A DNA stretch of 63,847 nt, filler included, from Octopus bimaculoides (Eukaryota): assembly GCF_001194135.2 (NCBI RefSeq). It is 5 parts of 4 records of this genome, joined end to end, with 100 filler letters (N's around TTAATTAATTAA, not from the genome) between each part and the next. Parts side by side here need not be neighbours in the genome. Positions count along the whole stretch, not along the records: positions 1 to 29,362 come from NC_068994.1; positions 29,463 to 40,414 come from NC_068989.1; positions 40,515 to 51,376 come from NC_068990.1; positions 51,477 to 61,104 come from NC_068991.1; 1 more part is not named here. One strand, written 5' to 3'. Positions within the stretch are counted from its first letter, which is position 1; each line of letters begins with the position of its first letter. The notes under the pieces are model-generated. The model saw only the letters and a program-made list of their open reading frames with translations, had not been told where the DNA came from and did not search any database. The translations under genes and the position numbers were made by a program. Shown here one piece after another: positions 21,820-60,400 of this stretch.

Positions 21820-21880
21820 GATAAAACTCCGAGTATCGGATGCCGGGGCGGAAACCCACGCCGTCATCTCTTCAGTTATC
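21820..21880 (-). ncRNA. Decayed type I hammerhead ribozyme
   Basis: GAUAA-CUGAAGA-[13-bp interrupted stem II]-C-GAUA-CUCGGAG-UU-UUAUC; helix I has 5 bp; core defects are GAUA for GAAA and one extra C. Confidence 0.55.
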
Positions 21881-22277
21881 TGGCCATTGGAAATTGCTAT
21901 AGCAATATATATATAGCTATATGTATGTATGTATGTATGTATGCAGCAGAAGTCAAATCAAGACTAGATTTTGGAGCATTCTTAAACAGAGCTCTTCAAA
22001 AACTTCAACTTAATCTTTGCAGGATCTTGACTCGTCTGCATAAATGTCTATCCTTTAATCAAATTCGTCAAGTGGATTATGCAAATGTTTATGGCATTCT
22101 GAGAGAAAAGGTCAGATAACAAAAACCAGTCGTTAATCCGTGTAATCGGCAACCGTCTCGCTGGTTTCAAAATAGTTTTGCGATCGAAGTCAGACTTTTG
22201 AAGTTAAAATCAAAAATACAACGTAAGTTCAACTTTTTCTGGTACGTAGGTGTGCATGTGTTTGTGTTTATATCTCC

Positions 22278-22431
22278 ATAACCGAGCGGTTCGGCAAAAG
22301 AAGATCGATAGCATTAAAATAAGCACAGGGGTCGATTTGTTTGACAAAGCTCTTCAAGACCCGTGGCCCCAGCGCGGCCGTATTCCAATGACTGAAGCAC
22401 TTCAAAGACAAAAGATAAAAGTGAATTCGAT
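22278..22431 (+). mobile_element. SINE family B 3' part
   Basis: gcggttcggcaaaagaagatcgatag...ggggtcgatttgtttgac...cccagcgcggccg...aaaagataaaag tail. Confidence 0.7.
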
Positions 22432-22469
22432 TCTAGAATATTGATATATGATGTATTTTTACTTTTTTA

Positions 22470-22660
22470 CCTGTTGCAGTCTGAGGCCATGCTGGGGCAC
22501 AGTTTCAAGGACTTTTATTCGAAAGAATCGACTCCAAGTCTAATTTTTTTTAAAGCCTAGAACTTATTCTATCGGTCTCTTTTGCCGAAGAGCTAAGTTA
22601 CGGAGACGTAAACACACCAACGCCGGTTGTCAAATGGTGGGCTGGGGACAAATTCGGACA
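22470..22660 (-). mobile_element. SINE family B 3' part
   Basis: ggccatgctggggcac...ttattctatcggtctcttttgccgaa...aaacacaccaacgccggttgtcaa. Confidence 0.75.
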
Positions 22661-57660: not shown

Positions 57661-58379
57661 GAACCCAAGAGAATGGAAGAATCAATGAAATGGTTATACG
57701 ATACTTTTCAAGTACCAACGCTACTACAGGTGATTGAATTCAGACGCACAAGTGTAAGAAAAAGAAAATGTACGGAGTTCCTGGAAGTGGATGCCAAACG
57801 GAAAAAATACTAAATGTATAACTAAGAAAAAAAACAAAAAAACTCAAAAAGAGAGGTGGGTGATGTAAAAAGTATTGCTATTAAAAGGGGAGAAGTGGGG
57901 ATAATAGTAATAATGGTACACCCCGCCCACGTGACGAGCGGTACGTACTAGTCACTATAAATAAGGTGACGTCGATCGGTATAAAGAGAGAGTACGAAGC
58001 ATACGGTCATAGATAGTCGTGATCTTGTCTTACTAACTATATTGCCATATAGGAGTGGGCGTTATAACAATCCCACACTAAGGATTACAACACTTGCGTT
58101 TCCAACACATACGCATTTTTAGTATGTATACAGAGCACTAGTTTTGAGCTAATACTGCTTCTGATGCTTTTCCCACTATCCTTCATTAAAGTTGTATATA
58201 TTTATATATAATTTTAGACCTATATTAATTTTTACCTCTACGGTTGTAAAGCATGATAGCCACTGATATTATTGTTATTATTTTATAATAATAATTTTAT
58301 ACTCTATATATATATATATATATATATATATATATATACAAGTTGTAAGTTTGTAAGTTACCAGAAATACAGCGACTAT

Positions 58380-59902
58380 TCTTATATATATATATATATA
58401 TATATAAATGAGAATGTGTGTCTGTCTGTGTGAATCCCTAAAACTCGAGAACTACGCAACCAATTTCATTCAAACTTTACACATGCCTTACTTAGGGTTC
58501 CAGTTGTGTTTTAGTCAAAAAAAATTATTAACTTCTTGCAGAGTTCGAGCACACGGCAACATAATATCTCCTCCACTATTTAAGTATTACGTGTCAAAAG
58601 TGAAACAAAAACACTCATGTCAAATACTTTCACTTTAAAANNNNNNNNNNNNNNNNNNNNNNNNNNNNNNNNNNNNNNNNNNNNNNNNNNNNNNNNNNNN
58701 NNNNNNNNNNNNNNNNNNNNNNNNNNNNNNNNNNNNNNNNNNNNNNNNNNNNNNNNNNNNNNNNNNNNNNNNNNNNNNNNNNNNNNNNNNNNNNNNNNNN
58801 NNNNNNNNNNNNNNNNNNNNNNNNNNNNNNNNNNNNNNNNNNNNNNNNNNNNNNNNNNNNNNNNNNNNNNNNNNNNNNNNNNNNNNNNNNNNNNNNNNNN
58901 NNNNNNNNNNNNNNNNNNNNNNNNNNNNNNNNNNNNNNNNNNNNNNNNNNNNNNNNNNNNNNNNNNNNNNNNNNNNNNNNNNNNNNNNNNNNNNNNNNNN
59001 NNNNNNNNNNNNNNNNNNNNNNNNNNNNNNNNNNNNNNNNNNNNNNNNNNNNNNNNNNNNNNNNNNNNNNNNNNNNNNNNNNNNNNNNNNNNNNNNNNNN
59101 NNNNNNNNNNNNNNNNNNNNNNNNNNNNNNNNNNNNNNNNNNNNNNNNNNNNNNNNNNNNNNNNNNNNNNNNNNNNNNNNNNNNNNNNNNNNNNNNNNNN
59201 NNNNNNNNNNNNNNNNNNNNNNNNNNNNNNNNNNNNNNNNNNNNNNNNNNNNNNNNNNNNNNNNNNNNNNNNNNNNNNNNNNNNNNNNNNNNNNNNNNNN
59301 NNNNNNNNNNNNNNNNNNNNNNNNNNNNNNNNNNNNNNNNNNNNNNNNNNNNNNNNNNNNNNNNNNNNNNNNNNNNNNNNNNNNNNNNNNNNNNNNNNNN
59401 NNNNNNNNNNNNNNNNNNNNNNNNNNNNNNNNNNNNNNNNNNNNNNNNNNNNNNNNNNNNNNNNNNNNNNNNNNNNNNNNNNNNNNNNNNNNNNNNNNNN
59501 NNNNNNNNNNNNNNNNNNNNNNNNNNNNNNNNNNNNNNNNNNNNNNNNNNNNNNNNNNNNNNNNNNNNNNNNNNNNNNNNNNNNNNNNNNNNNNNNNNNN
59601 NNNNNNNNAAGAGTGGGCAGCAAAAAAAAACCTATTTGTATATGCTCCACAAGGGAAAACAAGGAACATAGTTTACAACGAGGTGTTATAATCACAACAG
59701 CAAGAAAGTATGTACATGATCACCTTCTTTTACGAAACTTCATTGACTTTCATATATTTATATTGATATACATATATATACGTGTGTTTGGGTGCGTGTG
59801 TGTATATACATCTCTATATATAAAGATGATGCGTAGTCTAGACGGCGTTTTTAGATATCATTATTCTCTTTAACCCGGGCAACGCCGGGTATTTCTGCTA
59901 GT
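58380..59902 (+). mobile_element. Non-autonomous Helitron-like element (interior in gap)
   Basis: 3' hairpin cccgg-gcaacg-ccggg (59874-59889) followed by CTAG (59898-59901) then T; 5' tc(ta)n-aaatgagaatgtgtgtctgtctg start; linkage across the N gap is assumed. Confidence 0.65.
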
Positions 59903-60345
59903 TATATATATAAGAATAGTCGCTCGTTATATATATACGAATAGTCGCTCTATCACCGTAACTTACAAAGCCTTCTGGTTTGTTTACAAATATTATATGT
60001 AGTACTGGAAAGTTAAAGTATATATTCATAAAACTTCGGATGAAATCGATTGGTGAACGTTTGGCCCTATCGGATGCGCAAGGAGGCGTGTAAGCGTTGA
60101 TTTGTGGGTTCGATTCTAACCTGGCTTAGCTCATCATTTTTTCAGTCAATTGTTTATATATAAATGTCGCTTTAAATCGGAATATATATATTTATATTAT
60201 TATATAGTTATTATTGTATTATATATATATATATATATATTTATATATAATGTACTGTTCTGTGATAGAAAATTCAACTAAAAAAGTACTCCACCTGGTG
60301 AGAGATAAATATTATTTATTTAAAAGACACAATACATGTCTTTAA

Positions 60346-60400
60346 GTGCTACTAATAGTTTCATATGTTGAGAAATATCTCAAACATATTCTTCAGGCAC
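60346..60400 (-). ncRNA. Complete type I hammerhead ribozyme
   Basis: GUGC-CUGAAGA-AUAUGUU(U)GAGA-uauu-UCUCAACAUAU-GAAA-CUAUUAG-UA-GCAC; helices I (4 bp), II (11 bp plus bulge) and III (3 bp); predicted cleavage between 60350 and 60349. Confidence 0.85.

What the first reader, a model, noticed from the sequence alone, without database searches (positions are those of the whole stretch)
21820..60400. At least seven hammerhead-ribozyme loci with unrelated stems in one 64-kb window
Seen: CUGANGA...GAAA...UH cores with base-paired flanking helices at 21820(-), 35006(-), 41435(+, with a mirror copy), 46388(-, with a mirror copy), 52321(+), 53134(-) and 60346(-). Stem sequences differ completely between loci, so these are several independent families. 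Established: Penelope-like elements carry minimal type I hammerheads in their pseudo-LTRs, often with palindromic stem III that works as a dimer. Inference: this genome holds a large and diverse PLE/retrozyme-derived ribozyme population, some copies intact enough to cleave host intronic transcripts. None of this is visible in the ORF track.
Basis: partly seen in the sequence, partly recalled or inferred. Interest (0 to 1): 0.82.

Follow-up and report, generated by a model that had tools for sequence, protein, structure and literature searches.

The report
Penelope hammerhead remnants plus tRNA-headed SINE
This stretch of likely octopus DNA holds six hammerhead (self-cutting RNA) motifs, three of them complete, plus one half motif, likely left behind as end-pieces of Penelope-type jumping genes, which is a known and common pattern; the less ordinary item is a very abundant short repeat that joins a tRNA-like start to such a hammerhead end and likely borrows the Penelope machinery to spread.

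Summary
The motifs are real but overcounted. Of 7 loci, 3 have a full type I hammerhead (41440+, 53188-, 60396-), 3 are damaged (21875-, 46451-, 52321+) and 35020- is only a 3' half. Shuffles give 0-1 hits against 3 (strict) and 0-2 against 6 (relaxed). Loci are unrelated to each other. Palindromic stem III, inverted 5'-truncated partner copies and a broken RT/GIY-YIG ORF ending just upstream of 35020 mark them as ends of Penelope-like elements (PLEs). Thousands of such solo motifs per animal genome are published, and PLEs make up 6.8% of the O. vulgaris genome, so the density is ordinary. Cleavage of host transcripts is unsupported: no host exon was found, no monomer fold is the lowest-energy one, and RNA reads over the one family tested show no pile-up at the cut site. 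One thing goes further: 41271-41560 is a roughly 290-nt, very high-copy element with a tRNA-like head (A and B boxes), an (AAT)n spacer, a minimal hammerhead and a PLE-type tail. The same order recurs at a second locus. It is likely a PLE-mobilised SINE, which I did not find described for cephalopods.

The parts
21814..21885 (-). Damaged type I hammerhead (C3 21875, H17 21825): A14>U in the GAAA box, stem I of about 10 bp with one bulge, stem III 4 bp around one unpaired G
35229..37419 (-). Broken Penelope-like ORF, RT followed by GIY-YIG endonuclease, with several stops and frameshifts
   Evidence: RVT_1 E 4.6e-5; 154 relatives, many with PF00078+PF01541, 730-780 aa; tblastn 41-46% over residues 61-751 of P0009; profile positions 52-737 covered
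35005..35020 (-). 3' half of a hammerhead (G12 35020, palindromic stem III, H17 35011) in the 3' UTR of that ORF; 5' core box lost
41187..41270 (-). Inverted, 5'-truncated partner copy of the 41440 element; starts in loop II, no CUGANGA, abuts the tRNA-like head
   Evidence: 88% over 84 nt
41271..41347 (+). tRNA-like head with A box (41280) and B box
   Evidence: only A+B box pair in the window, 3 of 200 shuffles have one; end-to-end alignment to tRNAs, best score 64 against a maximum of 51 in 300 shuffles; not called by ARAGORN or Rfam
41348..41434 (+). (AAT)n/(AAC)n spacer and about 50-nt body of the same element
   Evidence: the same order read antisense at a second locus, P0121; body joined to the hammerhead in about 1000 reads per RNA run (table 7)
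41435..41480 (+). Minimal type I hammerhead (C3 41440, G12 41468, H17 41475). This copy has two CpG-type changes (C11.1>U, C15.2>U); the commoner letter in the family is C at both in 7 of 8 run-position pairs
41481..41560 (+). AT-rich 3' end. The last 26 or so nt are absent from the inverted partner, as expected for a PLE 'tail'; family boundary at 41559-41561
   Evidence: tables 2, 7
46388..46455 (-). Damaged type I hammerhead (C3 46451, H17 46392): perfect 8-nt stem III palindrome, stem II broken by a short duplication
46507..46554 (+). Inverted partner of the 46451 motif, decayed (C3>U, stem III mismatch); the inverted repeat spans about 46315-46627
52317..52361 (+). Hammerhead core with stems II and III (14-nt near-palindrome); a microsatellite begins right after H17 (52361), so stem I is missing or displaced
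53128..53200 (-). Complete type I hammerhead (C3 53188, H17 53140): stem I 6 bp, perfect 10-nt stem III palindrome, solo copy
60346..60400 (-). Complete type I hammerhead (C3 60396, H17 60350): stem I 4 bp, stem II 11 bp, stem III 4 bp around one U, solo copy

Best explanation
The window holds three complete, three damaged and one half hammerhead motif from unrelated repeat families, which are likely the 5'-truncated 3' ends (pseudo-LTR pieces) of Penelope-like retroelements and are likely decaying without a host function. In the parent elements the motif would cut the precursor RNA as a dimer, two copies pairing through the palindromic stem III, possibly with protein help (inferred from PMC4209133 and PMC11167929). 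The element's GIY-YIG nuclease would nick AT-rich DNA and its RT would copy the RNA from near the 3' end, usually stopping early. That leaves solo ends of 100-300 nt, often with an inverted truncated partner at the 5' side. Shown here: the motifs, three inverted pairs, the broken RT/GIY-YIG ORF upstream of one remnant, CpG-type decay. Inferred: PLE origin of the four loci with neither ORF nor partner (21875, 52321, 53188, 60396), and lack of activity. One family (41271-41560) carries a tRNA-like A/B-box head in place of an ORF. It is likely a polymerase III-transcribed, non-autonomous element that uses PLE proteins through its hammerhead-bearing 3' end.
For: Far above shuffles. Architecture matches the published PLE consensus: CUGANGA, often one extra base before stem II, long stem II, short stem I, palindromic 15.2-16.2, AU-rich 3' flank (PMC4209133). 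Stem III self-duplex energies are -4.9 to -18.4 kcal/mol at 5 of 6 loci. Inverted 5'-truncated partners at 41187, 46507 and 52675/52900 fit the published PLE insertion pattern (Craig et al.). PLE ORF 210 nt upstream of the 35020 half; related ORFs carry a type I hammerhead about 200 nt (L017), 260 nt (L023) and 630 nt (L029) behind the matched coding part. For the 41440 family: summed contig depth 3.6-4.6 million at the hammerhead, 1.0-1.2 million in the body and about 0.7 million in the head in run X1, where single contigs have 40-57, a 5'-falling gradient. Inverted tail pieces join the head start (41273-41276) at 6 different breakpoints among the 15 joints shown, in two organisms, and join truncated direct copies at other points. 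N7, the tolerant core position, varies (5-27%). The core CpG is lost at least as often as a tail CpG. A second locus has head, spacer, body and the hammerhead's 5' part in the same register (P0121, 75% over 52 codons; its other exons are not in the window).
Against: Only one of the families was examined across copies; no genome is held, so the others rest on one copy each, and no helix covariation was measured. Only 3 of 49 related-ORF loci gave a hammerhead with my descriptor, and 2 of the 9 whose match reaches the C-terminus; I did not look into the misses. The 41440 copy's 4-nt stem III does not self-pair in the model (+2.6 kcal/mol). In DNA contigs G12>A is rarer (2.6-4.3%) than the tail G>A (12.6-18.3%), which could mean selection on the core; in RNA reads the two are alike (23% against 25-26%), and bias towards the window's own letters may explain the DNA figure. 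The head-to-body link could not be read because the tool skips the (AAT)n repeat; it rests on one second locus (two searches found only P0121; a third found nothing) and on the joints. No autonomous partner sharing the 41440 family's 3' end was identified. The RNA reads come from standard libraries that can miss ribozyme ends, and the reporting threshold is a fifth of the depth.
Confidence: 0.85

Rival explanations
1. The complete copies (53188, 60396, 41440) are active and cut host pre-mRNA, acting as regulators or as mutagens of intron processing.
For: Core and three stems are intact at 53188 and 60396; the constrained monomer fold is only 2.4-2.8 kcal/mol above the minimum there. The 41440 family is heavily represented in RNA, about 4000 reads deep in a 6% subsample.
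Against: Stem III has a 0-1 nt loop, so a same-family partner is needed and none is in the window. Inverted pairs would fold into a hairpin in a read-through transcript (inference). No start or end pile-up, and depth is continuous across H17 for the 41440 family. No host domain in 131 ORFs, though short exons and 6316 N bases could hide a gene. Published minimal PLE hammerheads did not cleave as monomers (PMC4209133), and no RNA-seq ends were seen at the site in an anole PLE (PMC11167929).
Confidence: 0.05
2. The loci are monomers of non-LTR retrozymes that make small circular RNAs from tandem repeats.
For: Type I hammerheads without an ORF; retrozyme monomers occur and are proposed to derive from PLEs (Li et al. 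2026 preprint).
Against: No tandem direct copy at any locus. No back-going joint among the 15 of 185 joints shown for the 41440 family (170 rows not shown). Short stems I without a visible loop-loop module; inverted partners and tails are PLE insertion marks.
Confidence: 0.05
3. The 41271-41560 unit is not one element: an ordinary tRNA-derived SINE ending in (AAT)n landed between two PLE end-pieces here, or the composite spreads with a LINE and the hammerhead is only a passenger.
For: Head depth is about one sixth of hammerhead depth. With about 10^5 end-pieces some chance neighbours are expected, and the head joints shown sum to only a few dozen loci. SINEs ending in simple repeats are common (general knowledge). 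An earlier scan note reports such a one-off join in another genome (e1-7811937, not checked).
Against: The same head, spacer, body and hammerhead order with the same register at a second locus. Head joints to inverted tail pieces have one orientation and 6 breakpoints. The 3' end is fixed at 41559-41561 with mixed AT-rich flanks and no poly(A).
Confidence: 0.15
4. The motifs are chance matches in AT-rich, repeat-rich DNA.
For: 33 CUGANGA heptamers occur in the window against about 20 in shuffles, most without a ribozyme fold. Rfam reports nothing. The 35020 half alone could be chance: about 39 GAAA-plus-palindrome halves were listed.
Against: 3 against 0-1 and 6 against 0-2 in shuffles; mirror copies and family data restore the pairs; the 35020 half sits where relatives carry a hammerhead.
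Confidence: 0.01

Closest known systems
Minimal type I hammerheads in the pseudo-LTRs of metazoan EN+ Penelope-like elements (Cervera and de la Pena 2014, PMC4209133)
   Same: Core boxes, long stem II, short stem I, palindromic stem III, AU-rich 3' flank, mostly solo copies of many unrelated families, pairs on opposite strands 100-700 bp apart, link to an RT/GIY-YIG ORF.
   Different: Stem III palindromes are longer here (8-14 nt at 5 loci, like the Drosophila, rotifer and shrimp variants). Octopus is not named in the supplement file searched (file 1 could not be searched).
PLE insertion units with inverted 5'-truncated copy and 30-40 bp tail (Craig et al. 2021; Frangieh et al. 2024, PMC11167929)
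   Same: Divergent inverted partner at the 5' side, extra tail at one end only, AT-rich or microsatellite flanks.
   Different: At 41271 the unit's 5' end is a tRNA-like head, not a truncated ORF.
Schistosoma Sm-alpha / Sj-alpha SINE-like elements with a hammerhead (as reviewed in PMC6765202 and PMC2770079)
   Same: tRNA-derived, polymerase III-type, very high copy, hammerhead-bearing non-autonomous repeat.
   Different: Sm-alpha occurs in tandems and, per PMC4209133, has the canonical hammerhead type. The element here is dispersed, has the minimal PLE-type motif near its 3' end and shows PLE insertion marks.
Non-LTR retrozymes of animals (PMC7229834; Li et al. 2026 preprint 10.64898/2026.07.22.740005)
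   Same: Non-coding, type I hammerhead, proposed to be mobilised by PLEs.
   Different: No tandem units and no sign of circles here; the preprint does not mention tRNA or promoters.
Octopus tRNA-derived SINEs (Ohshima and Okada 1994; title only seen)
   Same: tRNA-derived head in an octopus-like genome where SINEs are about 11.6% (O. vulgaris).
   Different: Whether this family is one of those three could not be checked; I found no report of a hammerhead or PLE end in them.

Membership tests
Hammerhead ribozyme, type I | CUGANGA, GAAA and UH with helices I-III in type I order | tested here: met
   3 of 7 loci (41440, 53188, 60396)
Hammerhead ribozyme, type I | The same feature at the other four loci | tested here: not met
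   21875 A14>U; 46451 stem II broken; 52321 no stem I; 35020 no 5' box
Hammerhead ribozyme, type I | Match to an Rfam hammerhead model | tested here: not met
   open stem I and loopless stem III probably fall outside the models (inference)
Hammerhead ribozyme, type I | Helix covariation across copies | tested here: inconclusive
   41440 family: commoner letters restore G10.1-C11.1 and the stem III palindrome, N7 and loop II vary, but no compensatory pair is among the 40 rows shown (37 hidden). Other families have no copies to compare.
Hammerhead ribozyme, type I | Self-cleavage after H17 | not testable with these tools
   indirect only: no read-end pile-up for the 41440 family
PLE pseudo-LTR minimal hammerhead | Palindromic stem III with a loop of 0-2 nt (dimer type) | tested here: met
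   all 7 loci by sequence; stable self-duplex at 5 of 6 folded
EN+ Penelope-like element | RT followed by C-terminal GIY-YIG, with the hammerhead in the 3' UTR | tested here: met
   only for the 35020 locus; no ORF remnant near the other six
EN+ Penelope-like element | Inverted 5'-truncated partner and one-sided tail | tested here: met
   partner at 41440 and 46451, tail at 41440; not present at 21875, 35020, 52321, 53188, 60396
tRNA-derived SINE (41271-41560) | tRNA-like head with A and B boxes | tested here: met
   the box patterns are recalled consensus, written after seeing the site
tRNA-derived SINE (41271-41560) | Short, non-coding, dispersed, high copy, head and 3' end in one unit | tested here: met
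   depth, joints and fixed 3' end; second locus; the fraction of heads that are linked is unknown
tRNA-derived SINE (41271-41560) | 3' end shared with an autonomous partner | not testable with these tools
   no genome held; the window's own PLE has a different stem III and tail
tRNA-derived SINE (41271-41560) | Polymerase III transcription from the head | not testable with these tools
   reads lie equally in both directions and show no start pile-up
Non-LTR retrozyme | Tandem units with a hammerhead in each; circular RNA | tested here: not met
   no direct tandem copy; no back-going joint among the 15 of 185 shown

The most novel reading that the evidence does not exclude
One of the most abundant short repeats of octopus genomes (very roughly 10^4 headed and 10^5 truncated copies) is a tRNA-headed, polymerase III-type SINE whose partner is a Penelope-like element, not a LINE. 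It captured the PLE 3' end with its minimal hammerhead and inserts with PLE marks (inverted partner, tail). It is dispersed, needs no tandem to carry a promoter, and I found no description of such an element in cephalopods.
Probability: 0.55. Interest if true: 0.55.

Novelty: new variant of a known kind. Interest (0 to 1): 0.38.

Why it matters
The hammerhead density itself only confirms, for an octopus-like genome, what is published for other animals; Rfam misses these motifs, so they go unannotated. The tRNA-headed family matters more if it holds. SINEs are normally paired with LINEs, and PLE-dependent passengers are so far proposed mainly for promoterless retrozymes. A 290-nt natural substrate would define the minimal cis sequence a PLE protein needs. 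It would also let one ask what the hammerhead is for, a question left open because cleavage was dispensable for insertion in vitro (PMC11167929): a polymerase III transcript needs no ribozyme to free its 5' end, so retention of the motif would point to a role as protein-binding site or 3'-end maker. Its inverted pairs are also a likely source of double-stranded RNA for A-to-I editing.

Tried and rejected
Whole genome: none held. Rfam: only microsatellite-driven microRNA hits among the best 150 of 335 rows at E<=10, nothing at gathering score, no hammerhead or tRNA on two short stretches. ARAGORN: no tRNA in the window. Repeat finder: swamped by microsatellites and N runs. Copies of the 41440 motif in public contigs: 0 in metagenomes; 15 matches in prokaryote genomes, taken as chance and not examined. 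PLE relatives: none in metagenome contigs or viral contigs; 1 and 48 loci in prokaryote assemblies, probably host contamination. Translated search with the head plus spacer alone: nothing. Extra 3' halves at 4867, 39920, 61613 and a loose candidate at 61283 were read by eye and not counted. The head's tRNA isotype was not settled: Gln, Arg and Asp score 64, 61 and 58. The Lunse et al. dimer paper is not held; only its title was seen.
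Full report
SETTING. The window is 33% GC counted over all positions, has 6316 N and is full of microsatellites. No genome is held. The closest named relative of its retroelement protein by identity is an Octopus bimaculoides gene model (70%), so it is likely octopus DNA. Pfam on 131 stop-free, higher-complexity ORFs of 70 aa or more found only LTR-retrotransposon domains at 54.7-57.5 kb and a weak low-complexity mucin match, and no host gene domain. 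Whether the loci are intronic is therefore unknown.

CHECK OF THE OBSERVATION. A type I descriptor (core boxes, stem I at least 4 bp, stem II at least 3, palindromic stem III) finds 3 loci: C3 at 41440(+), 53188(-), 60396(-). Dinucleotide block shuffles give 0 in 150 of 150 and at most 1 in another 150. Three more are damaged. 21875(-) reads GATA for GAAA but has a stem I of about 10 bp. 46451(-) has a short duplication in stem II. 52321(+) runs into (TA)n right after H17. A union of three relaxed descriptors, written after seeing the loci, finds exactly these 6, against a mean of 0.22 and a maximum of 2 in 200 shuffles. The seventh, 35020(-), is only a 3' half; no CUGANGA lies upstream. Both mirror copies exist and are decayed. 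The loci share no sequence beyond the core (scores 16-32, against 116 and 132 for mirror pairs). Rfam sees none of them.

WHAT THEY ARE. The architecture matches the minimal hammerheads of PLE pseudo-LTRs (PMC4209133; I read parts 1-2 of 4 and passages of supplement file 2). That paper reports about 2000 to 9000 such motifs per genome, mostly solo, in many unrelated families, some as opposite-strand pairs 100-700 bp apart. It saw no monomer cleavage and weak dimer cleavage. Stem III strands self-pair at -9.7, -11.1, -18.4, -9.0 and -4.9 kcal/mol (21875, 46451, 52321, 53188, 60396) and not at all for the decayed 41440 copy. At all 6 loci the constrained monomer fold lies 2.2-8.5 kcal/mol above the minimum. 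The 35020 half lies about 210 nt behind the last stop of a broken ORF (37419-35229, minus strand). That ORF matches RVT_1 weakly and aligns at 41-46% over residues 61-751 of a 752-aa RT plus GIY-YIG protein. Of 49 loci with related ORFs, 3 show a type I hammerhead 200-630 nt behind the match, among them 2 of the 9 whose match reaches the C-terminus; the misses were not examined. No ORF remnant of this clade lies near the other six loci. Three divergent inverted pairs (41187/41452, 46315/46627, 52675/52948) fit the published insertion pattern of an inverted 5'-truncated copy next to the 5' end and a tail at one end only (Craig et al. preprint, passages; PMC8969392, passages). PLEs cover 6.83% of O. 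vulgaris in 190 families (PMC13282606, passages and supplement search). That is about 4 kb in a window of this size, so six or seven end-pieces are unremarkable.

THE 41440 FAMILY. I laid two RNA runs (raw reads, one study) and two probable DNA runs (contigs, two organisms) on 41050-41570 at 80% likeness. In run X1 the summed contig depth is 3.6-4.6 million over the hammerhead, 1.0-1.2 million over the body and about 0.7 million over the head; single contigs have 40-57. The tool warns that this is no copy number; as an order of magnitude it suggests 10^5 and 10^4. The 3' boundary is at 41559-41561 with mixed AT-rich flanks, about 26 nt beyond the end of the inverted partner. The commoner letter is C at 11.1 (61-76%) and about half or more at 15.2 (50-62%), which restores G10.1-C11.1 and the 4-nt palindrome. 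N7 varies in 5-27%. In RNA reads G12>A is 23%, like a tail CpG (25-26%). In DNA contigs it is 3-4% against 13-18%, which may be bias towards the window's letters or a trace of selection. Counting both strands of decay, the core CpG is not better kept than the tail CpG. RNA depth is about 4000 in a 6% subsample, equal in both directions and continuous across H17; no place with many starts or ends was listed.

THE HEAD. 41271-41347 holds the only A-box/B-box pair of the window (3 of 200 shuffles have one) and aligns end to end to tRNAs (best 64, shuffled maximum 51 of 300). ARAGORN and Rfam do not call it. Two results link it to the hammerhead as one unit. First, among the 15 of 185 joints shown, inverted tail pieces join the head start at 6 different breakpoints, in both organisms. 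Second, a translated search with the antisense frame across body, spacer and head found one protein, an O. bimaculoides NUP42 model. Its last 49 residues read the hammerhead's 5' part, body, spacer and head in register, 75% identical to the window, and its other exons are absent here. Limits: the tool skips the (AAT)n repeat, so the linked fraction is unknown; one further search found nothing; no autonomous partner was identified.

MECHANISM. Shown: motifs, inverted partners, ORF linkage at one locus, family structure and decay at another. Inferred from the literature: the GIY-YIG nuclease nicks AT-rich DNA, RT starts near the RNA 3' end at two sites that define the tail, and the hammerhead cleaves only with protein and is dispensable for insertion in vitro; no RNA-seq ends were seen at the site (PMC11167929, passages). 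My reading (0.85): these are spent PLE ends. The headed family likely supplies its own polymerase III promoter and uses PLE proteins in trans (0.55 that it is both real and undescribed). Host-transcript cleavage is unlikely (0.05): partners with the same palindrome are absent, and inverted pairs would form hairpins.

COMPARISON. The loci are members of the PLE minimal-hammerhead kind by architecture; cleavage is untested. They are not retrozymes by the tandem criterion (PMC7229834, passages; Li et al. preprint, part 1 of 5 and passages). The nearest precedent for a tRNA-derived repeat with a hammerhead is schistosome Sm-alpha, which is tandem (PMC6765202 and PMC2770079, passages). The giant squid annotation lists 235 Hammerhead_1 hits (PMC6962438, passages). 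Eight full-text searches showed no paper on a tRNA-headed, PLE-ended SINE or on octopus hammerheads; I saw listings for these and read only the papers named. PMC8967140 (passages) names tRNA-Core and tRNA-Deu as the main octopus SINEs; I did not search it for ribozymes. PMC10886601 gave reference-list passages only. Subscription papers, Repbase, Dfam, the 1994 octopus SINE paper (title only) and supplement file 1 of PMC4209133 could not be seen and may already describe this family.

VERDICT. Observation partly confirmed; interpretation partly supported. The headline claim is a known phenomenon. The tRNA-headed family is a probable new variant. Interest 0.38.

Noticed in passing
window 41050-41570: RNA runs list more A>G and T>C places (13 and 15-18) than DNA runs (4 and 6-7). 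At 41489 A>G is about 18-22% in RNA and under 1% in DNA contigs. This suggests A-to-I editing of the repeat, but C>T and G>A are also somewhat raised and no matched DNA exists.
   Followed up: partly
window 52361-52410: The 52321 motif stops exactly at H17 and runs into (TA)n(CA)n; a 5-6 bp complement of the stem I 5' arm follows the microsatellite. Either the insertion ended at the cleavage site, or the microsatellite grew inside stem I. One copy cannot decide.
   Followed up: partly
   Followed up: partly
P0121 (O. bimaculoides NUP42 model), residues 146-194: The model's last exon is an antisense copy of the 41440 family; the match begins just after an AG in the antisense strand of stem II. 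Exonisation or a gene-prediction artefact.
   Followed up: no
window 54700-57500 (+): Broken LTR-retrotransposon remnant (DUF7083, zinc-knuckle-like ORF, RT RNase H, integrase H2C2). Described only.
   Followed up: no
window 51846-52214: A self-inverted element of about 370 nt (MITE-like hairpin) just upstream of the 52321 motif.
   Followed up: no
window 41405-41434 and loose ends at 41435: A second, diverged body sequence joins the same hammerhead in 344-391 RNA reads per run; it may be a subfamily or the autonomous partner's 3' UTR.
   Followed up: no
L017, L023, L029: Prokaryote assemblies (SUP05 and Deltaproteobacteria bins) hold short contigs with a PLE-type ORF and a type I hammerhead, probably animal host contamination.
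   Followed up: partly
window 4867(+), 39920(-), 61613(-), 61283(+): Further possible decayed hammerhead halves with GAAA and a palindrome; not distinguishable from chance on one copy.
   Followed up: no
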